Assembly (NCBI GenBank): GCA_000092065.1
Contig: CP000593.1
Length of the DNA stretch: 64,000 nucleotides
Strand: one strand, 5' to 3'
From: Ostreococcus lucimarinus
Taxonomy: Eukaryota
Of this stretch, positions 1 to 45,977 are shown piece by piece (position 1 is the first letter of the stretch; each line of letters begins with the position of its first letter). The position numbers were made by a program, and so were the translations under genes. The notes beneath the pieces were generated by a model. That model made no database searches. It saw nothing but the letters and a program-made list of their open reading frames with translations, and was not told the DNA's origin.

Positions 1-507
1 ACGAGGAATTTGACGCTCACGGTAGGCGACGCGTTCAACGACGATCAAACGTCGATATGGTACACGAGATTGCTCAGAGACGAGGTGCTCGCGGAGTGGC
101 GCGAGGACGGCTTGCACGTGTTTTGTCAGGTGAGCGCGAAGGAGGCTTGGTGGATACGATGGGCGGCGCCCCTTCGTTCGGTCGTGTTTCGTCAAAAATT
201 ACCGTTGGTGTTAGATACGTTGCGTTACGCCGAGAGAGAGCTACTGGCGACGTATCCAGAGTTGTTTGACAGTCCGGTGTACGTCAACTTTGGCTCCGCG
301 GACGGACCGGGGGACAAGGAGTATTGGGGAGATTTCAGAACGGCTGGATCGGAAGAGACGCGATCGAGTCGAGTGACGTGCGCGGATGGTGCAGGACTGG
401 ATCCCAGAATAGCAGACAATGTTAGAAACACGATAATCACAGGGCGTGGTTCTCGCGTCGAGGTCGGCGGAGTGATTTTGGAAAACTCCCCAGCGCCTCC
501 TCGCTAG
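1..507 (+). CDS. 3' part of a gene that begins upstream of the window; conserved-looking but unassigned protein (...YTRLLRDEVLAEWREDGLHVF...PVYVNFGSADGPGDKEYWGDF...)
   Basis: Open frame from nt 1 with no in-frame stop before 507. The ORF-track 'M' at 10 is TTG. Composition is coding-like and not Arg-rich junk. No family assigned. Confidence 0.4.
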   Translation, partial: TRNLTLTVGDAFNDDQTSIWYTRLLRDEVLAEWREDGLHVFCQVSAKEAWWIRWAAPLRSVVFRQKLPLVLDTLRYAERELLATYPELFDSPVYVNFGSADGPGDKEYWGDFRTAGSEETRSSRVTCADGAGLDPRIADNVRNTIITGRGSRVEVGGVILENSPAPPR

Positions 508-733
508 CGAATGCGTTTTGAAGACCACGTCGTCGTCGTGCCGGCGGGCGAGCGACGCGGTCGAGTTTAGGACTTTTTATTACCACCTTTCTCATTAGTA
601 CTCATCATTCTTCGCACGATTCGAGCGGTGCGAGGAGCCAACGAGAGCTCGCCGACTTCGCAGCCGCTCTTCTGCTCGCCCGACGAGTGACCGCAGACCG
701 CGCTTCGCACGCGCGTCTCGGTGCGTCGCTACC

Positions 734-2215
734 ATGCGACGCTCGGCGTGTTCGCGCCAACACCGCGAGCTCTGTGAGAATTTGTTCTCGTTCGCGCACA
801 GAGCGCGCGCACGAGCCCGCACATCGACCGCATTCGCGACGGTGGACGAAGCGTTGCGGGACTTCGTCAATCACGAAAAGAGCGGCGTCCCGCGAAACGC
901 TGGGACGGATACGACGGACGGATTCGATCTCGGACGCATGCATAGATTGTTGCGAGACTTTGACGATCCACACAGGGCGTATAACACGATACACGTGTCG
1001 GGAACGAAGGGGAAAGGAACGACGGTTTCCGTGCTCGCGAGCGTCCTGCGCGCCGCTGGATTACGAATCGGCACGTATAAGAGCCCTCACGTGTATACCG
1101 TGGCGGAAAGGATTCGGAGTAGCGAAAGTGATGCGTCTGCACAAGTTCTCGACGTACTGCGCGATTTAGAGCGAGAGATAAAGTCTGCACAACAGCGTGA
1201 GGGCGGTCAGTTGTCGTACTTTGAAGTCCTCACGGCGCTCGCCTTTGCATACTTTAAAAAGGCAAACGTCGATTTAGCGCTCGTGGAAGTCGGTCTCGGG
1301 GGAAGTCGAGACGCCACAAACGTACTCGCGGCAGAAAATCTAGAAGCAGCGGTGATCACACACATAGGTGAGGAACACCTCGAAGCGCTCGGCGGTTCGA
1401 TTGAGACAATCGTAGACGCAAAAGCTGGCATCGCGCATAAAGGTCGTCCGGTGTTTTGTGCCCCAAACGTGGACGAACGAATAACAACAATGTTGAAAAC
1501 TGCGCTCCGCGCGCGTGGGGCGAACGTTATCGATAACGTATGCGTAGACACGCGTCTCGTGCGGTATCACGTGGAAGACTCGATCGCTTCGCAGGACGTC
1601 GACATCGACATCAAAGTGGATGGTAAAATAGCGTCCACCCTTTCGAACGTTCGAATTCCTCTCGCTGGGCCGCACCAGCGCGAGAACATAAGTCTTGCGC
1701 TTCGTGTTCTGTGGTGGCTTCGCGCTCAAAACAAAATCGACGCATCTCTGGAAGATATTCGAAGAGGCTTGGAAACGACGCGCAGTCCGGGGAACTTTGA
1801 AGTATTTGAGACGAGTGGAGGGCCCACGATGATTGCTGATGGCGCGCACACCAAAGGTTCCGCTCGAGTTCTCGTGAACACGATTCGTGAGGTTTATCCC
1901 GACCGAAAACTTTTGTTCGTCGTAGCGATGGCGGACGACAAGGATCACGGAGGATTTATTGAAGAGCTGTACAGGGCGGATCCCGTCGGTGTGGTGTGCA
2001 CTCAAATGCAAGTCGCCGGCGCATCGTCTCGAACGACGCCCGCGAAGACGCTCGCGAAGGCTTATATCGGCCCAGCGCATGGTCCGACTCCCACCTCAGA
2101 AGATGATTTCGAGAAGGCCTTGAAAGGAGCGCTCTCGCGCGGCGACGACGAGATTGTCGTGGTCGTGACGGGATCACTTTACACGTTCAAAGCGCTTAGC
2201 AAGGCGTTACTGTAG
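734..2215 (+). CDS. FPGS: Folylpolyglutamate synthase / dihydrofolate synthase (Mur-ligase fold, FolC family)
   Basis: 493-aa ORF starting at ATG 734. Mur-ligase P-loop IHVSGTKGKGTT. FolC-type N-terminus (RDFDDPHRAYNTIHV) and C-terminal domain (VVTGSLY). Single exon. Confidence 0.88.
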   Translation: MRRSACSRQHRELCENLFSFAHRARARARTSTAFATVDEALRDFVNHEKSGVPRNAGTDTTDGFDLGRMHRLLRDFDDPHRAYNTIHVSGTKGKGTTVSVLASVLRAAGLRIGTYKSPHVYTVAERIRSSESDASAQVLDVLRDLEREIKSAQQREGGQLSYFEVLTALAFAYFKKANVDLALVEVGLGGSRDATNVLAAENLEAAVITHIGEEHLEALGGSIETIVDAKAGIAHKGRPVFCAPNVDERITTMLKTALRARGANVIDNVCVDTRLVRYHVEDSIASQDVDIDIKVDGKIASTLSNVRIPLAGPHQRENISLALRVLWWLRAQNKIDASLEDIRRGLETTRSPGNFEVFETSGGPTMIADGAHTKGSARVLVNTIREVYPDRKLLFVVAMADDKDHGGFIEELYRADPVGVVCTQMQVAGASSRTTPAKTLAKAYIGPAHGPTPTSEDDFEKALKGALSRGDDEIVVVVTGSLYTFKALSKALL

Positions 2216-2278
2216 AGACACCGTAGACGTAGACTAGCGTAGATTAAGTAGTTTAGTTACAGCCGCGTTAGACTAAAT

Positions 2279-4156
2279 CTAGAACTCAGCGCTACCCGGG
2301 TAACGGGGGAAAGGAATGGCGTCACGAATGTTCTCCACACCTGTGACGTACTGAACGAGGCGTTCAAAACCGAGGCCGAAACCGGCGTGCGGCTGCGAAC
2401 CGTATCGTCTCAAATCTAAGTACCACCAGTACGACTCCTTTTCCAAACCAACCTCTTCGATTCGGCGCTCCAAGACATCAAGGCGTTCTTCTCTTTGGCT
2501 ACCACCCATCAACTCACCAACGCGGGGCACCAAGACGTCCATTGCGGCGACGGTTTTGTTGTCGTCGTTGAGACGCATGTAGAACGCCTTGATATCTTTC
2601 GGATAATCGCGCACGATCACGGGGCGATCTTTGAAGACTTCTTCTGAGATGTACCGCTCGTGCTCGCTCTGAAGATCCGATCCCCATTCGATTGGGAACT
2701 CAAACTTCTTCTTCGCGTTCAACACGTGCTCGACGGCTTCGGTGTACGTGATGCGCGCAAACTCTTGCGACGCGACGTTTCGAAGTCGCTCTCTCAGGTT
2801 GTCTTTGGAGATGTTCTTCTCGAAGAATTCAAGATCTTCGTCGCAGTGCTCGAGGACGTGGTTCAGGCAATACTTCAAGTACGCTTCTGCGCAATCCATG
2901 TCGTCGTTCAAATCCGCGAACGCGAGTTCGGGCTCTACCATCCAAAACTCAGCCAGGTGGCGCGACGTGTTGCTATTCTCCGCGCGGAACGTCGGACCGA
3001 AGGTGTAGATGTCGTTGACCGCGCAAGCCATGATTTCACCGTTCAATTGCCCAGACACGGTCAAATAAGACGGTTTGCCGAAGAAGTCTTGAGAATAGTC
3101 GATGGAACCATCCTTATTCTTCGGCAAGTCGGACGACGGGCGATTGTTCTTCAGCGCCTCGACGCTCGCCTTGAGATCTAAAAGCTTCGCCACGGCCTCA
3201 TCAACTTGCTCTTTCGTCGCGTCTCCCGCTTTCTTCGCCTCCTTCAGGGCCTTCACCGCGTCACCCTGTGCCTTCACCATGGCTTCTTGCTCGTCCACGA
3301 CCGAGGCCGGCGTCGTCCACTCGCCGGCGCCGAAGCCGTTCAACAGCGTCGTCACTTGAAACTGTTCCCCAGCGCCTTCGCAATCCGACGCGGTGATGAT
3401 CGGCGTGTTGGCGTATAAAAACCCATGCTCTTGAAAGAACGTGTGCGTCGCGTACGCCAACTGATTGCGCACGCGAGCCACGGCGCCGATGGTGTTTGTG
3501 CGAGGTCGCAAGTGCGCGATGCTTCGAAGATATTCCAGCGTGTGTCGCTTCTTTTGCAGCGGATACGTCTCCGGATCCGCCGTTCCGATGACATCAATCT
3601 CCTCCACCGCCAATTCCGCCGCTTGCTTCCCTCCCGGACTCGCCACGAGTTTCCCCTTCACCCTGAGCGCCGCCCCCGTGGAGACGCCGCCCGCGTCGAG
3701 CGCGTCCCACGCCGCGCTTCCCTCGTTCACCACCGCTTGCATCCCCGAGATCGCGCTCCCATCGTTCAGGTCGATGAACGCCATTCCCTTCTGCGTCCGC
3801 ACCGATCGCGCCCACCCTCGCAGTTCCAACGCCTCGCCCACGCGCGACGCCCCCCCGTCGTTTCCCTTCACGCGCGCGATGCGCTCGGGTCGTCCGTACG
3901 TCGCCCGCGTCGCCACCGCGCGCGCGCTCCGCGCGTGTTTGATCGCTCCCGGCGTCGCTCTCGCCCGCATCGCGAGCGCACCGAGTCGCGCGCCGAGTCG
4001 CGCGCCGCGCACCGCGTCCACGGACGCGCGCGACATCATCGCGCCGTCGCCCGCGGGGACGTCCAGTGACGTCGCGCGCCCGTAATTCGTCGTCGGCAAA
4101 GGCGCGGTCGGTCGCCGAGACCATAAAATCGCGTTCGACGGCCACTTGCGAACCAT
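2279..4156 (-). CDS. Asparaginyl-tRNA synthetase, bacterial/organellar type, with an R/A-rich presequence and an inserted WHEP-like helix-turn-helix
   Basis: Class IIb motifs FRAENSNTSRHLAEFWMVEPE and GGSQREER. Anticodon-binding OB fold. The region ASDCEGAGEQF ... DFFGKPSYLTVSGQLNGE parallels E. coli AsnRS. ATG at 4156; alternative start MMSRAS at about 4039. Confidence 0.9.
   Translation of the reverse strand: MVRKWPSNAILWSRRPTAPLPTTNYGRATSLDVPAGDGAMMSRASVDAVRGARLGARLGALAMRARATPGAIKHARSARAVATRATYGRPERIARVKGNDGGASRVGEALELRGWARSVRTQKGMAFIDLNDGSAISGMQAVVNEGSAAWDALDAGGVSTGAALRVKGKLVASPGGKQAAELAVEEIDVIGTADPETYPLQKKRHTLEYLRSIAHLRPRTNTIGAVARVRNQLAYATHTFFQEHGFLYANTPIITASDCEGAGEQFQVTTLLNGFGAGEWTTPASVVDEQEAMVKAQGDAVKALKEAKKAGDATKEQVDEAVAKLLDLKASVEALKNNRPSSDLPKNKDGSIDYSQDFFGKPSYLTVSGQLNGEIMACAVNDIYTFGPTFRAENSNTSRHLAEFWMVEPELAFADLNDDMDCAEAYLKYCLNHVLEHCDEDLEFFEKNISKDNLRERLRNVASQEFARITYTEAVEHVLNAKKKFEFPIEWGSDLQSEHERYISEEVFKDRPVIVRDYPKDIKAFYMRLNDDNKTVAAMDVLVPRVGELMGGSQREERLDVLERRIEEVGLEKESYWWYLDLRRYGSQPHAGFGLGFERLVQYVTGVENIRDAIPFPRYPGSAEF
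3143..3295 (-). other. WHEP-TRS-like insertion inside the AsnRS catalytic domain
   Basis: EAMVKAQGDAVKALKEAKKAGDATKEQVDEAVAKLLDLKASVEAL matches the WHEP consensus (V.AQGD.VR.LKA.KA.K..VD.AV..LL.LKA). Confidence 0.6.
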
Positions 4157-4273
4157 TGAGTTGATCGTTTTTTTCTCGTGTGGACGACTTTTTCGCTCGA
4201 CGCGCGTCGTCCGTCGGGCGTCGCGGTCGACGCGCGCGACGGGACGGGAGACGGCGTCGGGGGCGTGACGCGC

Positions 4274-5398
4274 ATGCGGGACGAGATCGCGCTCGTCGAG
4301 CGCGCGCGCGTGGTCGTGGCGGACGACGGCGCGCGCGCGCGGCGAGACGCGGTCGCGCGGGCGACGACGCGACGGTTGATTTTGACGTTCGAGACGACGG
4401 CGACGGCGGCGGCGGCGGGGAGCGCGGCCGAGGGTGGGACGGTGATCGAGTACGACGACGTGGCGGCGTGCGAACGAGCGCAGGAGTCGCGGTCGACGCT
4501 GGGTGGGTTGTTCAGGAGGCGCGAGCGCGGGGTGGCGCTGGTTTTGACGAGCGGGAGACGGGTGACGATCGGCGCGCGAGGGGCGAGCGCGGAGGAGGTG
4601 TGCGGGAAAATCGAGAACGCGATCGTAAAGTATAAGAGACAGAAAGCGACGGCGGCGGTGGAGACGACGCGGGAGGATGCGAGGCGGCGGGCGAGCGGCG
4701 CGTCGGCGGCGACGGCGGGCGTCGGCGGCGCGGTGAATCGACAGCTCGAACGCGCGGAGGCGACGAATAAGACGATGGACGAGGCGTTTACCGATCTCAG
4801 AGCGCTCATGGCGAAGGCTGGAGAGATGGTGACGCTCGCCGAGCGGCTCGCGGAGTCGATGGACGGGAAAGGGGAAAGTTCAGAGCTTCAGCGTCTCGTG
4901 CTCAGTCTCGGGATTACGAGTCCGGTGACGCGCGCGAACGCGGGGGCAGAGTTTCATCGAGAATTAGGTAAACAATTAGCGGATTGGATAACGCCCGTGG
5001 TGCAAAAATCGAACGGCATCATTACCGTCACCGATGCGTTCTGTTTGTTCAATCGCGCGCGAGGCACGGAGTTAGTTTCCCCGCAAGACATGCTTCGCGC
5101 GAGCGAATCGTGGGAGTCGCTCGGGGTCGATTTGCACTTGCGTAAATTTGAAAGCGGAGTGATGGTGATTCATACCGTAGAACGCACAGACGAGGAAGCG
5201 TGCGCGCGATTGCTCGCGCGATTGCCGTCTTACGAGCATTCAATCGATTCGTACGAGGCGGCGCAAATATTAGCGACGACGCCCGAAATAGCGCTCGAGT
5301 ACCTCTACATGGCAGAAAGCCGAGGCGTTTTGTGTCGAGACGACGGACCTGCGCAGATGAGATTTTATGCAAACATGTTCGAGGCTAGATTGACGTAG
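4274..5398 (+). CDS. VPS36: ESCRT-II subunit Vps36/EAP45 (GLUE-like N-terminus plus tandem winged-helix C-terminus)
   Basis: The C-terminus (NRARGTELVSPQDMLRASESWESLGVDLHLRKFESGVMVIH ... CRDDGPAQMRFYANMFE) closely parallels the human EAP45 C-terminus (CLVNRARGMELLSPEDL...CRDDSVEGLRFYPNLF). The ORF-track start 4178 is GTG; the first ATG is 4274. Confidence 0.75.
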   Translation: MRDEIALVERARVVVADDGARARRDAVARATTRRLILTFETTATAAAAGSAAEGGTVIEYDDVAACERAQESRSTLGGLFRRRERGVALVLTSGRRVTIGARGASAEEVCGKIENAIVKYKRQKATAAVETTREDARRRASGASAATAGVGGAVNRQLERAEATNKTMDEAFTDLRALMAKAGEMVTLAERLAESMDGKGESSELQRLVLSLGITSPVTRANAGAEFHRELGKQLADWITPVVQKSNGIITVTDAFCLFNRARGTELVSPQDMLRASESWESLGVDLHLRKFESGVMVIHTVERTDEEACARLLARLPSYEHSIDSYEAAQILATTPEIALEYLYMAESRGVLCRDDGPAQMRFYANMFEARLT

Positions 5399-5469
5399 AT
5401 TTTTATTGAACAACTCACAAATTAGCCACGGGTGATTGATGATGCTACACAATTTTCAAGCGCGCGCGC

Positions 5470-5898
5470 TTAAATGTCATTAATGTCGTCGAAATCGAAG
5501 AAGTCATCGTTCTCGTCGCGCTCTTCTTCGAACGTATCCGTATCGTTCACGCGGAAAGTGTCCGGGAGTTCCCCGTACGCCTTCAACGAGCGCGCCTCGT
5601 CGGCCAAGTACTTCAAGATGACGTCCGCCTTTTCGTCTTGAAAGTCCCGCAAGCCCAACAGGATGATGTCCCCGGTGTTCACCCAAACCTTTTTCCGCAT
5701 TTTACCGCGAATGTGACACAAACGCTTCACCCCATCGATGCACTGCGCCTCTAAGCGCCCGTTCCCGAGCATGCGCAACACTTGCGCGTACTCTTGACCG
5801 TCCTCTTTGAAGATGAGTTCGCGCTTCTCGTCTTCGCCGCCCCCTTTCCCGCGACGACGGTTCTTCCCTCCCTTTCCCTTGGAGTTACTCTTCGGCAT
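5470..5898 (-). CDS. EIF1A: Translation initiation factor eIF1A
   Basis: 142 aa. Basic N-terminal tail ([14 protein letters not shown]), S1/OB core ([56 protein letters not shown]) and acidic tail ([11 protein letters not shown]). ATG verified. Confidence 0.95.
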
Positions 5899-6337
5899 CG
5901 TGCGTTTACGACGCTCGCGTGTCTAAAACTTTACGCAGTCCCTCGATCGAGGACGAGTCGCGGATGAATGCGATTTCGGCGTCGTTCAAACTGAAGACCC
6001 TAGAACTTTCTTCGCGCGTCCGTCGCGCGCGTCCGTGCGCGCGAGGCGTGCGGTGAATCGATCGAACGCGCGTGCGTGACGTTTACGTGCGTGGAGCGCG
6101 CGCAAAGATCGGCCGAGTCCGGGTCGTCGACGGCGGGGCGTCGAAAAGAGACGGATGGGCGCGGGCCGAGCTCGACGTCGTTCGAGCGAACGCGCGGCGA
6201 AATCGAACCCGACCCCGTGGGCCAGGGTTGATGCGAGCGTTCGTGACTCAAGGAGTGGGGACTCGATCGGCGCGCGCGCGCGCGTCGAGAGGAAGTCGGT
6301 CGCTCGGGCGCTCTACAATCGGCGACGACGCTATGAA

Positions 6338-9300
6338 CTATAAATACTTCAGCCCGACGATCTTCGCTCGACGCTGGAGGGTGTGCTGGGTGACGACGGC
6401 GATGAGACTGGTGAAGGCGAGCGCGCGCACGGAGGGAATTTTTGAAAGAAACGGCGCCACGACGGCGAGCGGGGCGGTCAAGATGAGCGTCATCCCGTCC
6501 GTGCGAACGCTCGTGGCGAGGTAGTGCACCAAATTGATGCTATTCACCGAAGCGAGGAGCAGACTCAACGCGTTGAGCGTCATCCACGGCAACTTGGAGG
6601 CGGTCGCGGCGAGAACGTGAACTCGGTTCGGGCCGGCGAGGATGGCGGCGACGGCGTCCCAGCACATCTTACCCACGATCATCGCGAGCGGTGGAGCGTA
6701 TCGTTGGCTGTCTTCCAGTATAGGAAATATCACCGAGTCTTGGTGAAGAAGAAGCAGAATGGGCGCGAGGACGAAGACCGAAAACGCGGAGCCATCGGCC
6801 AACTCATCGCTCAGCACCACGCACGCGAGAAAGGACGTGAGCGTGGCGATGTTCCCGATGATTGGCATCCAAGCGATCGCCTTTGCCTTGAGTTCTCTGT
6901 GCTCGTTTCTGCTCGCGACACCGCGGAAATATTCCGGACGACTGCGACCAGTGGCGGGAAGGAACGGTGAAGTACCGCCTTGACGTCGTCGATGTTGCAC
7001 GCTCTCCAGGCTCGTTTTGATTCTCAACTTCAGAGCAAACGCGATTTGCAGCGAAGTCCCGGCGAAAACGCCGACGACACCGAATTTTCCTTCCATTCTC
7101 GCCTGATGGTCGTCCACAGTCTCGTCTGAGCCACCCATTTGTGTGACGTACGCCAAGCCGAGAACGGAGACGAACGATAAATACACGTAAGGCAACCAGC
7201 GCGAAGACTTCGGCGAAGGGCTGTACGTGAAAGACAAGAACACTCCCACCAGCGCACACGCGACAAATAGTAGTGCCGTCAGCGCCACTTGCTGGACGAA
7301 GAATTCCAGCGCCATATATAAACCAACGCTCCCACCGCACACGGCGCTTAAGGCGATTCGAATCGTTGACGTTGATTTTGTCTGTTGTCGTGGAGACGAG
7401 ACGGCGAATATCGCGGTGAGCGCGGCTAACATCAGCAACCAGCTCGGCCATCCATGATGCGCGTTCTCGCGCACGCCGTACATTCTCGCTTCGTCTTCTT
7501 CAGAGTCGGGAACGTGTTCGGCGTCATACCACATGCCCACCTCGCCCTTCCAAGGCATCGGCGGTCGGAAGGTGATGAGAAAGACGCCACAGAAACTCAA
7601 GAGCATCATCAATCGTTTGCTAAACATGTCATCACCGTAACTTTGTCGCGTTACCACGGACGCCAAGCTCGCCCCCGTGATCAGGAGGAGTCCACCGAAG
7701 AGCGTCGCGTCCGTCGGTCGGTGACCCGAGAGTTCAAATATAACGTCAAACATCGCAAACCGAGCGAATACCAAAGAGAACACCAAAGCGACGCAATAAC
7801 CAACGCTCGCGCCCGGAGATAATTGAGTCATTCGCCGTGACATCGCGTGCGGAGCGGTGATGGCGAGCACGACCACCAAGACGCTGAACATTTCCTTCAA
7901 ACCGCGAACAAAGAGCATGGAGAGCTTTGCGCCGCACACGCTCTGCATCACCCAGCCAAATTCGCGACTGATTCTCCCGCTGATGACGAGGCCTCGACTC
8001 GCCAAGAAGCCGCTGATGGAAGTGACGATGACCAAATATGGTGGATAAATCAAAGAATCGTCGTCATGCGTCGCTTGACTCAGGATTTGTTCAATCGTTG
8101 CGAGCGCCGAGACGTAACAGACGACGAGGACGCCAACCGTCGGCGCGCGCGCGCTTTTCGTATTCAACACCGCTGGCAAAGCCAAAGCCGCCACGGCGAG
8201 GAGTAATATGGCGACACACAATTGTTTGACGTCGAAAGCTCCCACGCGCACATCGAGTGACCAGAAATTCTTCGAAAGAAACCACGAAAAGCATCCGACG
8301 CAACTCGCGGCAAACACGCCGTAATCCTTCGGCTCTCGGTCCTCGTAATAATATTTGACGAATGACGATGATCCGGCGATGGGGATCGGAATCATCCACA
8401 GAGGTGCACCCAAAGCACAAATTGCGGTCGACGTAGACAGAGCCAACGTCGCCTTCACCGCACCCGTCGGGACGCCGTCGCCGACGGCGTTTGCGTAGCA
8501 CGCGGCGAAAACTGCCAGCGCGCTGTGGACGGAAACCGTCACCATGATGTAATTCAAAGGAGCCATGATTTCGATGTACTCGGCAAATTCACTAAATATT
8601 ATTCCACCTTCAACGCTCACCGCAAATCCAGTGAGTGCGAAGAGGAGCACGGCGGTTTCCATCCTTTTCGACGCCACGTCGACGCCGCGCGCGCGCCACC
8701 ACAACGACTTCTCCGTGCCGGCGGCTATTAAATACAACACCGGGACCGTCACCAACGCCCCACACGCGAAGACGTGATCGAGGGACTTGAACAGTGTGTC
8801 GAGGTTCGTCCATAAATACAACGCGACGGGTAAGCCGAGCGTGGCCACGGTGGCGTACTCGGCGTCGCTCTCGGTCAACGCCGAGCGCTTGTCCGACGGA
8901 GGCCCGTTCGTCTTCGTCACCGCCGCGCACGCGCTCGCGCACGGAAACAAAAACATCCGATGCGTGATCAACGACACGACCGAGCCGTAAAACGCCGCTC
9001 TCTCAGCTCCCGCGCTCGCGCTCGCGAACGCCCACGTCAGAATCGTCGTCGTCGTCGGCGGACACAGCGCGAAAATCAAACGCTCGCACGTCGCCGCCGC
9101 GCCCGCGTGCGACTCGTGTATCCACCGAAATTGCAGCGTGCACCACGAGCAAAATAAAAACAAATTCACCCCATTCACCGCGAGCAGCGCGCACGACGTC
9201 CCGACCGTCGCGCTCGTCCGCCAGCTCCCTCTCGTCAGCAGCGTCCCGAGCGCCGCCGTCGCCGTCGTCCAAATCGCGCCCAGCGCCCCCTCTCCGTTCC

Positions 9301-9766
9301 CCATCGCGTCCATCCCGCGCGCCGCGCTCGCCCCGATCGCGACCACGGTCACCATCGTCTCCCCCCCGCTGCCGAGCGTGACGCACAGCGCCGGCGCGAG
9401 CGCCGTCAGCGCGCGCGTCGAGTGTCCCCAACGACATCCCGCGCGTCGTCGCGTCGCCTCCTCGCGCGCCCCCGTCGCGCGCTCGCGCCCGCGTCCGCGC
9501 GCGCGCATCCCGGACGCGCGCGCGCGTCGTTTCCTCGCCCGATTCGCGCGCGTCGTCACCGCATCGCCGCCGCGCGTCGCTCGATGGCGTCGTTCGTCGT
9601 CCGTCCGACCGCCCGCGCGCCCGCGCCGCCCGCGCTCGCGCCTTCCGTTCGACGAGACCGTCCGATTGAGACCGTCCTCGCGCGCGCGCCCTCGCGCGCG
9701 CGCCCTCCGCGCGCGCGCCGCGCCGCGCGGACCCCGAACGCGCGCGGACGCGACGCGTCGCGACAC
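6338..9766 (-). CDS. Very large multi-pass membrane protein (more than 20 predicted TM helices), family unassigned
   Basis: Continuous 1142-aa ORF. The first ~130 aa are Arg-rich, so the true start is probably downstream, near ...GSGGETMVTVVAIGA. Body composition is coding-like and hydrophobic segments recur throughout. No catalytic motif recognised. Confidence 0.6.
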   Translation of the reverse strand: MSRRVASARVRGPRGAARARRARARGRAREDGLNRTVSSNGRRERGRRGRAGGRTDDERRHRATRGGDAVTTRANRARKRRARASGMRARGRGRERATGAREEATRRRAGCRWGHSTRALTALAPALCVTLGSGGETMVTVVAIGASAARGMDAMGNGEGALGAIWTTATAALGTLLTRGSWRTSATVGTSCALLAVNGVNLFLFCSWCTLQFRWIHESHAGAAATCERLIFALCPPTTTTILTWAFASASAGAERAAFYGSVVSLITHRMFLFPCASACAAVTKTNGPPSDKRSALTESDAEYATVATLGLPVALYLWTNLDTLFKSLDHVFACGALVTVPVLYLIAAGTEKSLWWRARGVDVASKRMETAVLLFALTGFAVSVEGGIIFSEFAEYIEIMAPLNYIMVTVSVHSALAVFAACYANAVGDGVPTGAVKATLALSTSTAICALGAPLWMIPIPIAGSSSFVKYYYEDREPKDYGVFAASCVGCFSWFLSKNFWSLDVRVGAFDVKQLCVAILLLAVAALALPAVLNTKSARAPTVGVLVVCYVSALATIEQILSQATHDDDSLIYPPYLVIVTSISGFLASRGLVISGRISREFGWVMQSVCGAKLSMLFVRGLKEMFSVLVVVLAITAPHAMSRRMTQLSPGASVGYCVALVFSLVFARFAMFDVIFELSGHRPTDATLFGGLLLITGASLASVVTRQSYGDDMFSKRLMMLLSFCGVFLITFRPPMPWKGEVGMWYDAEHVPDSEEDEARMYGVRENAHHGWPSWLLMLAALTAIFAVSSPRQQTKSTSTIRIALSAVCGGSVGLYMALEFFVQQVALTALLFVACALVGVFLSFTYSPSPKSSRWLPYVYLSFVSVLGLAYVTQMGGSDETVDDHQARMEGKFGVVGVFAGTSLQIAFALKLRIKTSLESVQHRRRQGGTSPFLPATGRSRPEYFRGVASRNEHRELKAKAIAWMPIIGNIATLTSFLACVVLSDELADGSAFSVFVLAPILLLLHQDSVIFPILEDSQRYAPPLAMIVGKMCWDAVAAILAGPNRVHVLAATASKLPWMTLNALSLLLASVNSINLVHYLATSVRTDGMTLILTAPLAVVAPFLSKIPSVRALAFTSLIAVVTQHTLQRRAKIVGLKYL

Positions 9767-9792
9767 AACGCGACGACGCGAAGCACGACGCG

Positions 9793-10221
9793 ATGGCGAC
9801 GCCGCGCGCGATGACGATGACGCGCTCGCGCGCGCTCGTCGCGACGCGCGTGACGACGCGAAGAGGGACGGCGACGACGCGACGCGCGCGCGCGACGCGC
9901 CCGAAGATCGAAAGCCTCGGTGGGTTCGGGCCGAACATCGACGCGAAGGAGATTCAACGACGCATGGCGGAGAAGCAGCGAAAGATCGACGAGAACAAGC
10001 GCAAGGCGCGGGGCGCGAAGGAGGCGTCGACCGCGTTCGGGGCGCGAAGGGAGTTTCAGAGGACGATCTCGAGCGCGAGACCGTCGCGCGCGGGACGGAC
10101 GATGCCGGGGGGCGGCGTCGCCGCGGGGACGACGTCGAGCAAGACGAAGACGACGAGCGGGAAGGGCGGGAAGGGCGGGAAGGAGGAGGCGCCGAAGAAG
10201 AAACTGTTCGGATTGTTTTGA
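9793..10221 (+). CDS. Candidate small basic protein with a T/R-rich presequence (hypothetical)
   Basis: ATG at 9793. The mature part (KIESLGGFGPNIDAKEIQRRMAEKQRKIDENKRKARGAKEAS...KKKLFGLF) is not low-complexity GC junk. Lies upstream of and divergent from the big membrane gene. Confidence 0.3.
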   Translation: MATPRAMTMTRSRALVATRVTTRRGTATTRRARATRPKIESLGGFGPNIDAKEIQRRMAEKQRKIDENKRKARGAKEASTAFGARREFQRTISSARPSRAGRTMPGGGVAAGTTSSKTKTTSGKGGKGGKEEAPKKKLFGLF

Positions 10222-42901: not shown

Positions 42902-43705
42902 CTACGACGGACGCGGCGCGGACGCCAACACGTCCTCGCTCGAAAGACGCACGACGCGCTCGTCCAAAACAAACTCAAACGTGCCGCCGTCGATGAGCAC
43001 TTTGATCGGTTTCTCGCGCTTGCGCGCGACGAGCCAGAGACATCGCGACGAGATAAAAGCAACGACACCTTCGCGACCGACGAGATCGGGCGCGCGCGCG
43101 TGACGCACGACTTTGAGCACGCAACCGTGTAAGTCGAGCCCGCGCGTCAGTCGCGCCTCAGCCTCGCCGCGCTTCGCGTCCTTCACCAGCGCCCGCGCGT
43201 ACTTTTCCCACAGCCCGCGCAATTTCGAAAACGCGCTCCACGTACACTGTTCCGGCCTCAATCCGTACAATCCTTCCCTCTTTAATCGCGTTTTGCTCAT
43301 CATCGCTCTGCGCGCCTCGGCGAAGCGCTTCTCCCGCTCCCGCGCTCGCGCCTCCCCCGCGTCCACCACCCTCTCCCAATCATTCACGAGCACCAGCGCT
43401 TTATCCGCGCTCAGCTTCGCTCGCAAATCGTCCTCCGCGTCCGCGCTCGTCCCTCGTCGACGCGTCGCCAGCATTCGCCGCGCGTACGCCTCCGCGTACG
43501 CCCTCCGCGCCGCCGCCTCCTCGCGCGCCGTCGCCCGCGCGCCCGCGAACGTCTCCTCGTCCTCCCCGATCGACGGCGCGTAATACGACGTCGTCGGATC
43601 CGCGTCCGCGTCCCGCGCCGTCGTCGTCGCCGCGCTCGACGCCGTCTCGCGCGAAGCGCGCCCGCGCATTCGCGCCTCCAAATCCGCGATTCGCGACGCC
43701 TTCAT
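42902..43705 (-). CDS. POP4: RNase P/MRP protein subunit Rpp29/POP4
   Basis: The C-terminus (DLHGCVLKVVRHARAPDLVGREGVVAFISSRCLWLVARKREKPIKVLIDGGTFEFVL) matches the Rpp29 Sm-like core (DLhGa.i.V..S..p.lVG..GIVv.ET...f.Iit....k.IPK....F.F). The ORF-track start 43993 overlaps the next gene; ATG at 43705. Confidence 0.6.
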   Translation of the reverse strand: MKASRIADLEARMRGRASRETASSAATTTARDADADPTTSYYAPSIGEDEETFAGARATAREEAAARRAYAEAYARRMLATRRRGTSADAEDDLRAKLSADKALVLVNDWERVVDAGEARAREREKRFAEARRAMMSKTRLKREGLYGLRPEQCTWSAFSKLRGLWEKYARALVKDAKRGEAEARLTRGLDLHGCVLKVVRHARAPDLVGREGVVAFISSRCLWLVARKREKPIKVLIDGGTFEFVLDERVVRLSSEDVLASAPRPS

Positions 43706-43865
43706 CGCGCGCCTCGTCCTCGCCGTCGCCCCGTCGCTCGCCCGACCGCGCGTCGCGTCGCGTTCGTCGTCGTCGCCGCTCGAGCGTCGTCGAAGCCGCC
43801 GCACGCCGCGCTCTGCGGCGTCGATTCGATTCCATTCCAATCCGCTCGCCGCATTCGTCGTCGCG

Positions 43866-45977
43866 ATGCGTCGCGCGCGTCGCGCGCGGCGCCTCGCGCT
43901 CGGCGCCGCGCTGACCGCGCTCGCGCGCGTCGCGCTCGCGCGCGCCGACCGCGCGTCGATCGCCGTCGTGGGGAGCGTGAACGCCGACGTCATCGCGCGC
44001 GTCGGAACATCGGTCCCGCGCCGCGGAGAAACGCGCGCGGCGACGGCGGCGCGCGTCGAGCGCGCGTGCGGAGGGAAGGGAGCGAATCAAGCGGTCGCGG
44101 CGTCGCGATTGACGTGCGAGCGCGGCGGGAAGGCGGCGTTCGTGGGACGATTCGGGGAGGACGAGGCGGGGACGACGCTGCGACGCGCGCTGCGGCGAGA
44201 GACGGATGTGTCCGGGAGCGTCACGATGGCGCGAGGGAGCGGAATCGAGACGGGAATGGGGTTCGTGATGCTGACGGACGATGGATCGCCGAGCGCGGTG
44301 GTCGTGGGGGGGGCGAACGCGCTCGGATGGAACGCGGACGACGAGGCGCTGGCGAGCGAGTTTCGCGAGGCGCTGCGAGGCGCGAAGACGGTGATGCTGC
44401 AGCGGGAGGTGCCGGAACGCGTGAACGTGATAGCGGCGACGGTTGCGAGGGAAATCGGTGTGCGAACGATCGTGCTGGACGCGGGAGGCTCGTTTCACGC
44501 GGCGGATGAGGCGTTGTTGGCGCTCGTGGATTACGTCGCGCCGAACGAGAGCGAACTCGCGGGAATGGCGGGAATGCGCGTGGAGGAGGTTTCTTCTGGG
44601 GACGAAGCGGTCGTTAAGGCGGCGAGAATCGTCGCAGGAACGTCGCGCGTCGCCGTTCTGTGCACGCTGGGGAGTCGAGGATCGTTGCTCGTGAGAGGCG
44701 AAGACGTCACGAGAGTCGAATCGATGGAACTTCCGGCCGGCGCCAAAGAAGTGGACGCCACCGCGGCTGGTGATGCGTTTCGCGCCGCGTTCGCGGTGGC
44801 GATGGCTGAAAATAAAAACGAGCGCGACGCCATGAAGTTCGCCAGCGCCGCGGGGGCTTTGGCGGTGACGAAGTTGGGTGCGATGCCAAGCCTTCCATTT
44901 CGGAGCGACGTGGATGAATTTCTTGGCGTTTCAGATCCGTGCCGAACGTCCCCTATCTCGTCGTCTTCGTCGTCCAGTGAGGCGGCGATCGAGGCACTTC
45001 GATTTGCCAGTAGATTGAATAGCATGAAATCTCGCGCAGACTTATTCACGGATGCCGAACCGGACGTTCCGGAAGTCTTCAACCTCATAAAGCGCATGGG
45101 ACGCGTTCAGGGCGTGCATTCGGTGTTTCTCAACTACCCCGAACATTTCATCGGACCAGACGGCAACGAGCTCGCGGCAGTGGAATTGCGAGACAAGATT
45201 CTTGCCGCGAAGTTGCGCCCTGGCGCCGTATGCGTGCGATTTCCCGAGGAGCCGTTTCGATTGGGCGCGTTCTCGAATCCCGATGGCGTGATTCGCGAAC
45301 ACGCGGCGACTTTGGCACGCAAGGCGTGCGCGACTGCGACCGCACTCGACGCAGACGAAGTCGTCATATGGCCTCGCTACGATGGATACGATTACAATCT
45401 CCAAGCGGATTACGCCACGGCGTGGGAGGACATGATTGTCGGTTACAAAGCAGTGGCCTCGAGCGAAGAGTGTCGCTCGCTCAAGTTGAGCGTCGAATTC
45501 AAGCCGACGGACGAAAAGAGCCGTTTCAGCTTCATCCCCACCACAGGTGCCGCACTCCTACTCGTCGACGCCGTGGGCGAGCCCAACTTCGGCCTGACAC
45601 TGGACGTCGGCCACGCGCTCGCCGCGGGCGAGAATCCAGCCCAGTCCATCGCGATGGCGGCTTCGAGAAACGCTCTGTTCGGCGTCCAACTCGGCGACGG
45701 TCACACCCGTCTCGGCGCCGAAGACGGTTTGATGTTCGCCTCCGTCCATCCTCACGCCGCCATGGAATTAGTCCGCGCGCTACGTCGCATATCCTACGCC
45801 GGCGTGCTCTACTTTGACACCTTCCCTCTCAACGAAGATCCGGTGGCGGAAGCCGAGCGAAACGCCCGCGTCTTCCGCGACTTCTACGCCCGCATCGTCG
45901 ACGTCGAGGTCGAAATCGAAGATGCCATCGCCAGTCGAGACGCCATTCGAGCTCTCGACGCCGCATCACGGATGTGA
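43866..45977 (+). CDS. Fusion protein: N-terminal pfkB/ribokinase-family sugar kinase plus C-terminal xylose-isomerase-like TIM-barrel (sugar isomerase/epimerase) domain
   Basis: Kinase: AVVGSVNADV...GGKGANQAVAA...DATAAGDAFRAAFAVAM (ribokinase DTxGAGD). Ser-rich linker. TIM barrel: LSVEFKPTDEKSRF, LDVGHALAAGENP, GVQLGDGHTRLGAEDGL. Confidence 0.78.
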   Translation: MRRARRARRLALGAALTALARVALARADRASIAVVGSVNADVIARVGTSVPRRGETRAATAARVERACGGKGANQAVAASRLTCERGGKAAFVGRFGEDEAGTTLRRALRRETDVSGSVTMARGSGIETGMGFVMLTDDGSPSAVVVGGANALGWNADDEALASEFREALRGAKTVMLQREVPERVNVIAATVAREIGVRTIVLDAGGSFHAADEALLALVDYVAPNESELAGMAGMRVEEVSSGDEAVVKAARIVAGTSRVAVLCTLGSRGSLLVRGEDVTRVESMELPAGAKEVDATAAGDAFRAAFAVAMAENKNERDAMKFASAAGALAVTKLGAMPSLPFRSDVDEFLGVSDPCRTSPISSSSSSSEAAIEALRFASRLNSMKSRADLFTDAEPDVPEVFNLIKRMGRVQGVHSVFLNYPEHFIGPDGNELAAVELRDKILAAKLRPGAVCVRFPEEPFRLGAFSNPDGVIREHAATLARKACATATALDADEVVIWPRYDGYDYNLQADYATAWEDMIVGYKAVASSEECRSLKLSVEFKPTDEKSRFSFIPTTGAALLLVDAVGEPNFGLTLDVGHALAAGENPAQSIAMAASRNALFGVQLGDGHTRLGAEDGLMFASVHPHAAMELVRALRRISYAGVLYFDTFPLNEDPVAEAERNARVFRDFYARIVDVEVEIEDAIASRDAIRALDAASRM

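What the first reader, a model, noticed from the sequence alone, without database searches (positions are those of the whole stretch)
43866..45977. Single-polypeptide fusion of a ribokinase-family sugar kinase and a xylose-isomerase-like TIM-barrel enzyme
A pfkB kinase (GG dipeptide, DATAAGDAF anion hole) is joined by a Ser-rich linker to a sugar-phosphate isomerase/epimerase-like TIM barrel. The barrel has KPTDEKSRF, VGHALAAGENP and GDGHTRLG metal- and substrate-binding-like motifs. In bacteria such functions are usually neighbouring operon genes. The fusion implies a channelled two-step sugar conversion. Codon usage matches the host, so it is not recent contamination.
Basis: partly seen in the sequence, partly recalled or inferred. 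Interest (0 to 1): 0.5.

Follow-up and report, generated by a model that had tools for sequence, protein, structure and literature searches.

The report
Algal sugar kinase–isomerase fusion enzyme
This Ostreococcus gene really does join a ribokinase-like sugar kinase to a xylose-isomerase-like sugar isomerase in one protein; the fusion is conserved across many algae and mirrored by a bacterial two-gene operon, but its sugar is unknown and nobody appears to have studied it.

Summary
Window 43866-45977 (+) is one uninterrupted 703-aa ORF of Ostreococcus lucimarinus. It has a signal-peptide-like N-terminus, a PfkB/ribokinase-type kinase, a disordered Ser-rich linker and a xylose-isomerase-like TIM barrel. 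The architecture is not unique. More than 100 protein clusters from green algae, diatoms, pelagophytes, chrysophytes and dinoflagellates share it, and some records are already auto-named "ribokinase/xylose isomerase". I found no paper on its function. In bacteria the same isomerase family sits directly upstream of a ribokinase-like gene in 41 of 82 loci, inside sugar-uptake clusters. This supports two consecutive steps on one sugar. The kinase half is not the cell's ordinary ribokinase. Several chlorophytes have a separate canonical ribokinase, and the fusion paralogue has a roomier sugar lid (A98G, N108A/V/P, I110S/A). The bacterial partner kinases changed at the same lid positions independently. 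The isomerase half is closest to free-sugar aldose-ketose isomerases (3ktc, L-rhamnose isomerase, class I xylose isomerase). Best reading: isomerise, then phosphorylate, a ribose-like sugar that is not plain ribose, possibly allose/psicose-type. The substrate, the reaction order, channelling and the implied secretory location are all untested. Interest is moderate.

The parts
43866..45977 (+). Whole gene: 703-aa bifunctional kinase-isomerase ORF, including the stop codon
   Evidence: Residues 1-356 are identical to O. lucimarinus XP_001420964.1.
43866..43958 (+). N-terminal signal-peptide-like segment (residues 1-31): basic n-region MRRARRARR, 11-residue hydrophobic core LALGAALTALA, small-residue c-region
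   Evidence: AF2 predicts helix 2-25 followed by a break. 93% of 151 fusion homologues have a hydrophobic 11-aa window (KD >= 1.8) within a median 34-aa extension. The figure is 98% of fusions against 0% of bacterial partner kinases.
43953..44897 (+). PfkB / ribokinase-type kinase domain (residues 30-344)
   Evidence: Pfam PF00294, E 1e-40. The best solved relative is ribokinase 6ilr, E 2.9e-50.
43968..43991 (+). VGSVNADV: N39 and D41, equivalent to E. coli ribokinase N14 and D16 (sugar hydroxyl binding)
   Evidence: Alignment to 1gqt. Invariant in 46 fusions.
44070..44090 (+). GGKGANQ: the GG dipeptide plus K71 and N74 (equivalent to G41, G42, K43, N46)
44250..44318 (+). Substrate-lid strands TGMGFVML...GSPSAVVVGGAN. 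G132, V134, P142 and A144 replace ribokinase A98, I100, N108 and I110.
   Evidence: Numbering verified against 1gqt. Group-specific columns. Same-species comparison with canonical ribokinases.
44397..44414 (+). LQREVP: E181, equivalent to ribokinase E143
44541..44555 (+). PNESE: the NxxE Mg/phosphate motif (N227, E230)
   Evidence: Invariant in all kinase groups.
44754..44780 (+). DATAAGDAF: anion hole and catalytic base D303 (equivalent to D255)
44925..44999 (+). Inter-domain linker (residues 354-378) with the Ser run SPISSSSSSSEAAIEA. Variable in length and sequence among homologues.
   Evidence: pLDDT is below 50 at residues 361-369. The kinase-motif to TIM-motif distance ranges from 313 to 551 aa among homologues.
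44988..45974 (+). Xylose-isomerase-like (beta/alpha)8 barrel, aldose-ketose isomerase type (residues 375-703)
   Evidence: AF2 pLDDT 91.2, pTM 0.90. Foldseek: 3ktc TM 0.86, P. stutzeri L-rhamnose isomerase TM about 0.82, class I XI TM 0.80-0.83. Pfam PF01261.
45003..45035 (+). FASRLNSMKSR: family-specific N-terminal motif of the isomerase (R383, L384, N385, S386, M387 invariant)
   Evidence: Shared by the algal and bacterial members.
45492..45527 (+). VEFKPTDEKSRF: E544 and K546, equivalent to XI E181 and K183 (metal 1 ligand and substrate lysine)
45600..45638 (+). LDVGHALAAGENP: D580 and H583, equivalent to XI E217 and H220 (bridging and metal 2 ligands)
45687..45728 (+). QLGDGHTRLGAEDG: Q608 lies at the XI D245 position, followed by invariant D611. 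E619 and D620 align near XI D255 and D257.
   Evidence: The loop at 612-619 has low model confidence.
45810..45842 (+). YFDTFPLNEDP: D651, equivalent to XI D287 (metal 1 ligand)

Best explanation
The gene encodes a bifunctional enzyme that carries out two consecutive steps on one free, ribose-like sugar that is probably not plain D-ribose. The C-terminal barrel is a two-metal aldose-ketose isomerase of an uncharacterised subfamily. That subfamily is related to 3ktc, L-rhamnose isomerase and class I xylose isomerase, and it interconverts the aldose and ketose forms. The N-terminal domain is a paralogue of ribokinase. It keeps the ATP site, the catalytic residues and the hydroxyl-binding residues, but it has a widened substrate lid. 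It phosphorylates the isomerase's product and so traps it as a sugar phosphate. Shown here: the architecture, the conservation, intact catalytic residues in both halves, paralogy to a co-existing canonical ribokinase, the lid changes, and the recurrent bacterial operon pairing. Inferred: that both halves act on the same sugar, that the order is isomerase then kinase, and the substrate class. The leading specific guess is a ribo-configured aldohexose/ketohexose pair of the D-allose/D-psicose type, at roughly 25-30%. The runner-up is aldopentose to ketopentose to ketopentose-1-phosphate. The conserved signal-peptide-like N-terminus suggests entry into the secretory pathway, which this explanation does not account for.
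For: 1. Both domains are real and look catalytically intact.
2. The fusion is conserved in more than 100 clusters across distant algal lineages, and is present in complete transcripts.
3. There is an independent association in bacteria. Among 82 loci holding the isomerase family, a ribokinase-like PfkB gene is directly downstream on the same strand in 41, often with a 4-bp overlap. It lies within four genes in 62 and within the locus in 68.
4. In an NJ tree the bacterial partner kinases form their own clade. That clade is separate from the RbsD-adjacent true RbsK genes and from the algal fusion clade, so the pairing arose at least twice.
5. Partner kinases score below the ribokinase equivalog cutoff (237-243 bits against 299.65). 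The second PfkB next to RbsD passes it (309 bits).
6. Raphidocelis, Monoraphidium, Parachlorella and Chlamydomonas leiostraca each have a stand-alone canonical ribokinase as well as the fusion.
7. At lid residues A98, I100, N108 and I110 (numbering checked against 1gqt), canonical ribokinases read A, I/V, N, I. Fusions read G, V, A/V/P/T, S/A. Bacterial partners read S/A/G, A/D/V, Y, A/T/S. The hydroxyl-binding and catalytic residues are invariant in all groups.
8. The nearest structural relatives of the barrel all isomerise unphosphorylated sugars.
9. The bacterial clusters carry sugar ABC importers, RbsD/FucU mutarotases and RpiR regulators.
10. The adjacent binding proteins score best to the D-allose binder AlsB (157-213 bits) over RbsB (102-147 bits) in four lineages. 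One cluster has a hexulose-6-phosphate-isomerase-like SIS protein.
Against: There are no biochemical data for any member of either the fusion or the bacterial pair. The algal kinase half is phylogenetically nearer to true eukaryotic ribokinases than to the bacterial partner kinases, so the functional link rests on analogy rather than orthology. All ribose hydrogen-bonding residues are kept, so ribose itself is not excluded. The AlsB-like scores are all well below the curated cutoff. The trees are NJ only, and the kinase tree has no bootstrap. AlphaFold predicts no fixed inter-domain interface (pTM 0.61), so channelling is unsupported. A signal-peptide-like N-terminus is hard to reconcile with ATP-dependent salvage in the cytosol or the plastid. 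Several invariant arginines in the barrel (R383, R410, R458, R553) could instead bind a phosphate. That would favour the reverse order, kinase first.
Confidence: 0.55

Rival explanations
1. Kinase first. The ribokinase-like half phosphorylates an aldofuranose at its terminal hydroxyl, and the barrel then isomerises the aldose phosphate to a ketose phosphate. The barrel would be a non-RpiA/RpiB sugar-phosphate isomerase feeding the pentose-phosphate or Calvin cycle pools.
For: The domain order in the fusion is kinase then isomerase. The barrel has invariant Arg residues (R383, R410, R458, R553) and a family-specific motif, FASRLNSMK, rich in basic and polar residues that could hold a phosphate. 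JGI annotates relatives as 'sugar phosphate isomerase/epimerase'.
Against: The closest solved and characterised relatives (L-rhamnose isomerase, xylose isomerase) act on free sugars. The bacterial gene order is isomerase then kinase, with translational coupling. The clusters include mutarotases that act on free sugars. The JGI label is a generic COG name and not evidence.
Confidence: 0.2
2. It is simply the alga's ribokinase (D-ribose to ribose-5-phosphate, for nucleoside salvage as in plants). The appended barrel would have an unrelated or accessory role.
For: The best solved match is a ribokinase, 6ilr (which I recall is the Arabidopsis enzyme), at E 2.9e-50. N14, D16, K43, N46, E143 and D255 equivalents are all kept. 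UniRef names the orthologues 'Ribokinase'. The nearest stand-alone relatives are eukaryotic ribokinases.
Against: Chlorophytes with the fusion also have a separate canonical ribokinase. The fusion clade has fixed changes at the ribose-contacting lid that the canonical algal and plant enzymes lack. Plant ribokinase is reported as exclusively plastidic (PMC12589546), whereas the fusion has a signal-peptide-like leader rather than a transit-peptide-like one. The same isomerase family pairs with a non-RbsK ribokinase paralogue in bacteria. It scores 197.5 bits against the 299.65 cutoff of the bacterial ribokinase equivalog.
Confidence: 0.12
3. Pentose-1-phosphate route. An aldopentose is isomerised to a ketopentose, and the kinase phosphorylates the ketofuranose at C1, as ketohexokinase does for fructose. 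A class II aldolase encoded elsewhere then splits the product into DHAP plus glycolaldehyde.
For: In one SAR324 lineage the operon reads FucA-like class II aldolase, then isomerase, then kinase, with overlapping stop and start codons. That aldolase matches L-fuculose-phosphate aldolase (264 bits) and ribulose-1-phosphate aldolase (174 bits) models. From my own knowledge: ketohexokinase has a ribokinase-like fold and phosphorylates C1 of ketofuranoses.
Against: The aldolase is adjacent in only 2 of 82 loci, and both are the same lineage. That locus also holds MtnK-like and MtnA-like genes, so the aldolase may belong to a 5-deoxyribose/DHAP-shunt module instead. No aldolase is fused or linked in algae. 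The adjacent binding proteins look more AlsB-like, that is hexose-like.
Confidence: 0.1
4. It is an artefact: two separate genes merged by a chance read-through ORF in GC-rich DNA, or bacterial contamination.
For: GC-rich DNA gives many long spurious ORFs around this locus. The public O. lucimarinus model covers only the kinase half.
Against: Both halves share one frame with no stop. The same fused architecture is present in O. tauri models, in complete transcripts of other algae, and on eukaryotic contigs among MCM8, BRO1 and IFT genes. Codon usage is native. The neighbours are eukaryotic genes.
Confidence: 0.02

Closest known systems
Ribokinase (RbsK / plant plastid RBSK; PfkB family)
   Same: The fold is the same, as are the GG dipeptide, the NxxE motif, the anion hole with the catalytic Asp, and the ribose hydroxyl-binding residues N14, D16, K43, N46 and E143. 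The best solved match is ribokinase 6ilr.
   Different: It is a separate paralogue clade that co-exists with canonical ribokinase in chlorophytes. The lid residues A98, I100, N108 and I110 are replaced by G, V, A/V/P and S/A. It is fused to an isomerase. It has a signal-peptide-like leader rather than a transit-peptide-like one. It scores below the NCBIfam ribokinase cutoff.
Uncharacterised bacterial operon pair: XI-like isomerase followed by a ribokinase-like PfkB (SAR324, Paracoccaceae, Verrucomicrobia, Actinobacteria, Firmicutes)
   Same: The isomerase family is the same (33-47% identity; shared motifs FASRLNSM, EDGL, YFDTFP). The two activities are the same. The partner kinase also has a relaxed lid. 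The SAR324 and algal isomerases form one clade with 60/60 NJ bootstraps.
   Different: There are two genes rather than one, in the opposite order. The kinase belongs to a different clade of the ribokinase family. The bacterial proteins have no hydrophobic N-terminal extension and sit in ABC-transporter, RbsD and RpiR clusters. No function has been published that I could find.
PDB 3ktc, putative sugar isomerase of Pectobacterium atrosepticum. From memory, unverified here, this is probably the D-apiose isomerase ApsI of the apiose pathway.
   Same: It is the closest solved structure (TM 0.86, HMMER E 4e-30) and is a free-sugar aldose-ketose isomerase type barrel.
   Different: Identity over the structural alignment is only about 25%. 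3ktc keeps Asp at the XI D245 position where this family has Gln. The apiose pathway uses an FGGY kinase (AplK) and a split transketolase, not a PfkB kinase.
Class I xylose isomerase and Pseudomonas stutzeri L-rhamnose isomerase
   Same: The barrel is the same (TM 0.80-0.83). Equivalents of E181, K183, H220 and D287 are kept, and acidic residues lie at or near the other metal positions.
   Different: It is about 60 to 100 residues shorter. E217 becomes D and D245 becomes Q. It scores 64 bits against the 447-bit xylA cutoff and 29 bits against the 531-bit RhaI cutoff. It has its own N-terminal motif.
E. coli D-allose system (AlsB binding protein, then allose to allulose-6-phosphate to fructose-6-phosphate). 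The pathway details are from my own knowledge.
   Same: The binding proteins next to the bacterial isomerase genes are most similar to AlsB. L-rhamnose-isomerase-type barrels are known to interconvert D-allose and D-psicose, as shown by complexes in the PDB hit list.
   Different: The als pathway phosphorylates first, with a ROK kinase, and isomerises the phosphate with RpiB. No AlsE homologue was seen next to the pair. The AlsB scores are far below the cutoff.

Membership tests
PfkB carbohydrate kinase family (PF00294) | Profile match above the curated threshold | tested here: met
   140.4 bits against a cutoff of 25.8, residues 30-344.
PfkB carbohydrate kinase family (PF00294) | GG dipeptide, NxxE motif, and the GAGD-type anion hole with the catalytic Asp | tested here: met
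   G69-G70, N227/E230, and A301-G302-D303 are invariant in 46 fusions and in all kinase groups.
Ribokinase proper (EC 2.7.1.15) | Ribose hydroxyl-binding residues N14, D16, K43, N46 and E143 (E. coli numbering) | tested here: met
   N39, D41, K71, N74 and E181 align to them in the 1gqt alignment. They are conserved.
Ribokinase proper (EC 2.7.1.15) | Canonical hydrophobic lid over the ribose (A98, I100, I110, with N108) | tested here: not met
   The window has G132, V134, P142 and A144. The fusion clade has G, V, A/V/P and S/A. Canonical algal, plant and bacterial ribokinases have A, I/V, N and I.
Ribokinase proper (EC 2.7.1.15) | Score above the NCBIfam equivalog cutoffs (TIGR02152, NF008353) | tested here: not met
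   197.5 against 299.65, and 180.5 against 341. Caveat: these models were built on bacterial sequences.
Ribokinase proper (EC 2.7.1.15) | Being the organism's ribose-phosphorylating orthologue | tested here: inconclusive
   Four chlorophyte species have a separate canonical ribokinase plus the fusion. Ostreococcus itself could not be checked. Enzyme activity is not testable here.
Xylose isomerase-like TIM barrel superfamily (PF01261) | Profile match above threshold and a (beta/alpha)8 fold | tested here: met
   59.7 bits against a cutoff of 31.1. AF2 pLDDT 91 and pTM 0.90, with alternating strands and helices. Foldseek probability 1.00 to 3ktc, L-RhI and XI.
Xylose isomerase (EC 5.3.1.5) | Equivalog-level similarity (TIGR02631, TIGR02630) | tested here: not met
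   61-64 bits against 447, and 21.5 bits against 533. The name 'Xylose isomerase' on the O. tauri orthologue is not justified.
Xylose isomerase (EC 5.3.1.5) | Full two-metal ligand set E181, E217, H220, D245, D255, D257 and D287, plus K183 | tested here: inconclusive
   E544, K546, H583 and D651 are conserved. E217 becomes D580. The D245 position is Q608, with invariant D611 three residues on. E619 and D620 lie near D255 and D257, but the register is uncertain and the loop is low-confidence.
D-apiose isomerase / apiose transketolase pathway | Partnered with the FGGY apulose kinase AplK and the split transketolase AptAB | tested here: not met
   AplK in E. coli SE15 is an FGGY kinase next to transketolase genes. 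Here the partner is a PfkB kinase, and no transketolase recurs in 82 bacterial loci.
Secretory (signal-peptide-bearing) proteins | N-terminal n-, h- and c-region signal peptide | tested here: inconclusive
   There is a basic n-region and an 11-residue hydrophobic core in the window protein. 93-98% of fusion homologues have such a segment, against 0% of bacterial partners. No dedicated predictor such as SignalP or TargetP was available, and localisation is untested.

The most novel reading that the evidence does not exclude
The fusion is a secretory-pathway (ER/Golgi-lumenal or exported) ATP-dependent small-sugar kinase-isomerase. It is conserved across green algae and red-plastid lineages, and it defines an undescribed route for a rare ribo-configured sugar of the allose/psicose or ribulose type. 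Abundant marine SAR324 bacteria and Rhodobacterales would run the same route as a two-gene operon. The isomerase would have been exchanged between algae and SAR324 by horizontal transfer.
Probability: 0.15. Interest if true: 0.75.

Novelty: new variant of a known kind. Interest (0 to 1): 0.45.

Why it matters
Both halves belong to well-known enzyme families, so the chemistry is unlikely to be exotic. Even so, this is a conserved enzyme of unknown substrate, present in most major groups of marine phytoplankton and, as an operon, in abundant marine bacteria. Identifying its sugar would add a step to algal carbohydrate metabolism. It might also reveal a sugar exchanged between phytoplankton and bacteria. 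The signal-peptide-like leader, if real, would place a soluble ATP-dependent sugar kinase in the secretory pathway, which would be unusual. On the practical side, the reference O. lucimarinus gene model is truncated, and the names 'Xylose isomerase' and 'Ribokinase' on orthologues are over-specific.

Tried and rejected
1. Literature. Five searches found no paper on the fusion or on the bacterial pair: ribokinase plus xylose isomerase with fusion/algae/Chlamydomonas terms, a plastid/nucleoside search, and a psicose/allulose/ribulose kinase search. The D-ribulose Rbl system that turned up uses an FGGY kinase and a KpsF-type isomerase, so it is unrelated.
2. D-apiose pathway. It was considered because 3ktc is from Pectobacterium. 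It was rejected as the matching system because AplK is an FGGY kinase acting with a transketolase. The Carter et al. 2018 paper (PMC6435334) and Riggs et al. 2016 (PMC5077194) were not held. The identity 3ktc = ApsI therefore remains my recollection only.
3. Stand-alone 'algal-type' isomerases. These seemed to be a bacterial sister group, but they proved to be eukaryotic fusions split by prokaryotic gene callers.
4. Gene calling. The first neighbourhood tally, with longest-ORF gene calling, lost the isomerase gene in 30 GC-rich loci. It was redone with conservation-weighted ORF choice.
5. Bootstrapping. A Biopython bootstrap timed out and was replaced by a numpy distance version.
6. Synteny. 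The neighbours in the window are unrelated eukaryotic genes, as expected, so they give no information.
7. Channelling. The full-length AlphaFold model gave no confident domain-domain packing, so nothing can be said for it.
Full report
**What is there.** Window 43866-45977 on the + strand is a single ATG-initiated ORF of 703 codons with no internal stop. Pfam finds a PfkB carbohydrate-kinase domain at residues 30-344 (E 1e-40). It finds a xylose-isomerase-like TIM barrel (PF01261) at residues 467-671 (E 4.5e-16). Both are well above their curated cutoffs. Against solved structures, the N half matches ribokinases best: 6ilr at E 2.9e-50 and E. coli 1gqt at E 3e-39. The C half matches 3ktc (a structural-genomics 'putative sugar isomerase') at E 2e-29 and class I xylose isomerases at 1e-14 to 1e-9.

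**Organism and gene model.** The neighbours are eukaryotic genes: a Ser/Thr protein kinase, a GRAB-domain coiled-coil protein, an acyl-CoA dehydrogenase and an SMP/C2 protein. Residues 1-356 are 100% identical to XP_001420964.1 of Ostreococcus lucimarinus CCE9901. That public model is flagged 'partial' and ends in the linker, so the reference annotation misses the isomerase half. The O. tauri orthologues (67% identity) are modelled as fused proteins of 686 and 699 aa. NCBI names them 'Xylose isomerase' and UniRef names them 'Ribokinase'. Codon usage of the ORF matches other genes in the window: RSCU r = 0.925, and GC3 0.74 within the local range of 0.61-0.80. Complete transcripts from MMETSP algae carry both domains. 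Apparent stand-alone 'algal-type' isomerases in metagenomes are fusions cut in two by prokaryotic gene callers, on contigs with MCM8, BRO1 and IFT genes. An artefact or contamination is excluded.

**Distribution.** The full-length protein retrieves 170 clusters at E <= 1e-10, and nearly all of the 120 listed carry both Pfam domains. The named ones are:
- chlorophytes (Ostreococcus, Chloropicon, Chlorella, Micractinium, Chlamydomonas, Raphidocelis, Monoraphidium, Tetradesmus, Scenedesmus, Nannochloris);
- a pelagophyte;
- diatoms (Thalassiosira, Cyclotella);
- an ochromonad;
- dinoflagellates (Effrenium, Alexandrium).

Some records are already named 'ribokinase xylose isomerase'. So the architecture is known to databases. 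However, full-text searches found no paper that discusses it.

**The isomerase half.** With an 18-sequence alignment, AlphaFold gives a confident (beta/alpha)8 barrel (pLDDT 91.2, pTM 0.90). Foldseek places it next to three groups:
- 3ktc (TM 0.86);
- Pseudomonas stutzeri L-rhamnose isomerase (TM about 0.82; PDB entries with L-rhamnose, D-allose and D-psicose);
- class I xylose isomerases (TM 0.80-0.83).

This is the aldose-ketose isomerase branch of the superfamily, whose characterised members act on unphosphorylated sugars. In HMMER alignments to xylose isomerase, E544, K546, H583 and D651 match E181, K183, H220 and D287. E217 is replaced by D580. The D245 position is Gln in the whole family, with an invariant Asp (D611) three residues later. 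E619 and D620 lie at or next to D255 and D257. The site therefore looks competent but modified. No NCBIfam equivalog claims the family (64 bits against the 447-bit xylA cutoff). A family-specific N-terminal motif, F[AG]SRLNSMK, is shared by algal and bacterial members.

**Bacterial counterpart.** Stand-alone relatives of about 320 aa (42-47% identical) occur in marine SAR324 bacteria. There the gene is followed, with a 4-bp stop/start overlap, by a PfkB gene. A scan of one genome per bacterial and archaeal species found 412 relatives. The closest are SAR324, followed at 33-38% identity by Paracoccaceae and other Rhodobacterales, Verrucomicrobia, Actinobacteria, Firmicutes and Fusobacteria.

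I called conserved ORFs in 82 loci and clustered them. A ribokinase-like PfkB is directly downstream on the same strand in 41 loci. It lies within four genes in 62 and somewhere in the locus in 68. Other recurrent neighbours are:
- a ribose-type ABC importer (Peripla_BP_4 binding protein, ATPase, permease);
- an RbsD/FucU mutarotase;
- an RpiR regulator;
- an FGGY kinase with BtpA and an M42 peptidase-like protein;
- aldo-keto reductase, SDR and amidohydrolase_2 genes.

The partner kinase scores 237-243 bits on the ribokinase equivalog, below its 299.65 cutoff. A second PfkB beside RbsD in the same locus scores 309 bits and is the true RbsK. It shows that the isomerase works with a ribokinase paralogue and not with ribokinase itself.

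**The kinase half.** By BLAST the algal kinase is closer to plant ribokinase (38% identity, 179 bits) than to either bacterial PfkB (about 30%, 81-85 bits). An exhaustive HMMER search found that its nearest stand-alone relatives are eukaryotic ribokinases from Ulmus, the ciliate Protocruzia and the alga Rhizochromulina.

I built an NJ tree of 232 kinase domains (no bootstrap). All 49 fusion kinases form one clade, whose sister group contains Arabidopsis RBSK and other stand-alone ribokinases. The bacterial isomerase-partner kinases form a different clade, distinct from the RbsD-adjacent RbsK clade. The kinase-isomerase association therefore arose at least twice.

Raphidocelis, Monoraphidium, Parachlorella and Chlamydomonas leiostraca each possess a canonical stand-alone ribokinase in addition to the fusion. 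So the fusion kinase is a paralogue.

Column-by-column comparison, with numbering verified on the 1gqt alignment, shows the following. The ATP, catalytic and sugar-hydroxyl residues are invariant in all groups (D16, G41, G42, K43, E143, N187, E190, G254, D255). The lid residues differ by group:

| E. coli position | Canonical ribokinases | Fusions | Bacterial partners |
|---|---|---|---|
| A98 | A | G | S/A/G |
| I100 | I/V | V | A/D/V |
| N108 | N | A/V/P/T | Y |
| I110 | I | S/A | A/T/S |

That these lid residues cover the bound ribose in E. coli ribokinase is my recollection of the crystal structure literature. Both isomerase-associated kinase lineages thus independently enlarged the lid while keeping the ribose-type hydrogen-bond set. 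I infer a ribo-configured furanose that carries extra bulk.

**What sugar.** This cannot be settled computationally.
- Hexose hints: the binding proteins encoded next to the isomerase in Paracoccus, Heyndrickxia, Sebaldella and a verrucomicrobium all score best to the D-allose binder AlsB (157-213 bits). RbsB scores lower (102-147 bits). All are far below cutoff. The verrucomicrobial cluster also has a 6-phospho-3-hexuloisomerase-like protein. L-rhamnose-isomerase-type barrels interconvert D-allose and D-psicose (PDB entries). Psicofuranose is, in effect, ribofuranose with an added hydroxymethyl group, which would fit the roomier lid.
- Pentose hint: one SAR324 lineage places a FucA-like, ribulose-1-phosphate-aldolase-like gene directly upstream of the pair. 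This suggests aldopentose to ketopentose to ketopentose-1-phosphate to DHAP plus glycolaldehyde. That locus also holds MtnK- and MtnA-like genes, to which the aldolase may belong.
- Rejected: the D-apiose pathway, because its kinase AplK is an FGGY enzyme acting with a transketolase.

**Origin of the isomerase half.** In an NJ tree rooted on 3ktc, the algal and SAR324 sequences form one clade in 60 of 60 bootstraps. Freshwater actinobacterial MAGs are the sister group. Eukaryote monophyly within that clade is weak (9 of 60). However, all algal sequences share E[FYW]KPTDE where bacteria and xylose isomerases have EPKP.EP. This points to a horizontal transfer between a SAR324-like lineage and algae, direction unresolved. 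A fusion to a duplicated eukaryotic ribokinase would have followed.

**Unexpected N-terminus.** The kinase core is preceded by a short segment that looks like a signal peptide: MRRARRARR, then LALGAALTALA, then RVALARA. AlphaFold predicts helix 2-25. Across 151 fusion homologues the extension has a median of 34 aa, and 93% contain an 11-residue window with mean Kyte-Doolittle hydropathy >= 1.8. In the curated set the figure is 98% of fusions, against 23% of stand-alone ribokinases with any extension and 0% of bacterial partners.

In the diatom, pelagophyte, chrysophyte and dinoflagellate proteins the hydrophobic segment abuts the kinase core. That leaves no room for the transit-peptide part of a bipartite plastid leader. 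A stand-alone ribokinase clustering with that of Rhizochromulina has a 71-aa extension long enough for such a bipartite leader. Plant ribokinase is reported as exclusively plastidic (PMC12589546). No signal-peptide predictor was available, so this remains a sequence-level observation. If correct, it puts an ATP-dependent sugar kinase in the secretory pathway, which none of my explanations accounts for.

**Channelling.** The full-length AlphaFold model has high local confidence (pLDDT 91) but pTM 0.61. The linker at 361-369 is disordered. The model therefore predicts two beads on a string. Linker length varies widely among homologues. Co-localisation of the two activities is certain, but substrate channelling is unsupported.

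**Verdict.** The finding is real and correctly described at the domain level. It is a conserved, uncharacterised bifunctional enzyme built from two familiar families, and the architecture is already visible in databases. The new points from this analysis are:
- the specific bacterial operon counterpart;
- the paralogy to canonical ribokinase and the convergent lid change, which argue against plain ribose;
- the SAR324 link;
- the signal-peptide-like leader;
- the truncated reference model.

I rate it a new variant of a known kind, of moderate interest.

Noticed in passing
window 43866-43958 (residues 1-31) and the N-termini of homologues P0003-P0118: There is a conserved signal-peptide-like hydrophobic leader directly before the kinase core, in green algae, diatoms, pelagophytes, chrysophytes and dinoflagellates. 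In the secondary-plastid lineages there is no room for a plastid transit peptide. This implies secretory-pathway entry or a membrane anchor for an ATP-dependent sugar kinase.
   Followed up: partly
window 43866-44933 against the public model XP_001420964.1 / ABO99257.1: The reference O. lucimarinus CCE9901 protein is a 356-aa 'partial' model, identical to residues 1-356 of this ORF. The annotation stops in the linker and omits the isomerase half. The same 356-aa sequence carries two accession pairs (also ABP01289.1 / XP_001422930.1), which suggests it is recorded at two places in the assembly.
   Followed up: partly
window 42902-43993 (-): A divergent minus-strand ORF of 363 aa has a weak, sub-threshold RNase P/MRP p29 match in its C-terminal part. 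If it starts at its first ATG, it overlaps the first 128 nt of the fusion ORF. Internal Met codons at 43705 and 43669 would remove the overlap. Its true start is unknown.
   Followed up: partly
loci L001, L007 and L012-L025 (SAR324 group) against the algal isomerase halves: The algal and SAR324 isomerases form one clade (60/60 NJ bootstraps), nested in a broad bacterial family. This indicates horizontal transfer between marine SAR324-like bacteria and algae. The direction is not resolved.
   Followed up: partly
L007 / L014, about 1-9900 (SAR324 MAG JAYPUA010000043.1): Next to the aldolase-isomerase-kinase operon lie a divergent GntR regulator, an MtnK-like kinase (APH), an MtnA-like isomerase (IF-2B), an FGGY kinase, BtpA, and Dak1/Dak2. 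This resembles a 5-deoxyribose / methylthioribose DHAP-shunt module joined to other sugar genes.
   Followed up: no
Rhodobacterales loci such as L046, L048, L061, L071 and L087: A trio of FGGY kinase, BtpA-family protein and M42 peptidase-like protein recurs beside the isomerase-kinase pair, often with an aldo-keto reductase. From memory it resembles the E. coli sgc cluster proteins SgcQ and SgcX. Its function is unknown.
   Followed up: no
P0363 / P0457 (Rhizochromulina marina ribokinase cluster): This stand-alone algal ribokinase has a 71-aa N-terminal extension with a hydrophobic stretch followed by an Arg/Ser/Ala-rich region. It looks like a bipartite plastid-targeting leader, which contrasts with the fusion's short leader.
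   Followed up: no
P0051 (Parachlorella, 1084 aa), P0101 (1149 aa) and P0232 (Aureococcus, 451 aa): Some gene models add further domains to the fusion or to the isomerase: lipase_3 (PF01764), LRAT-like (PF04970), and ankyrin repeats. These may be merged gene models or real larger fusions.
   Followed up: no
O. tauri CEG00142.1 / OUS46292.1 and UniRef entries: Orthologues are named 'Xylose isomerase' by NCBI and 'Ribokinase' by UniRef. Neither name passes the corresponding equivalog thresholds, so both are likely over-annotations.
   Followed up: yes
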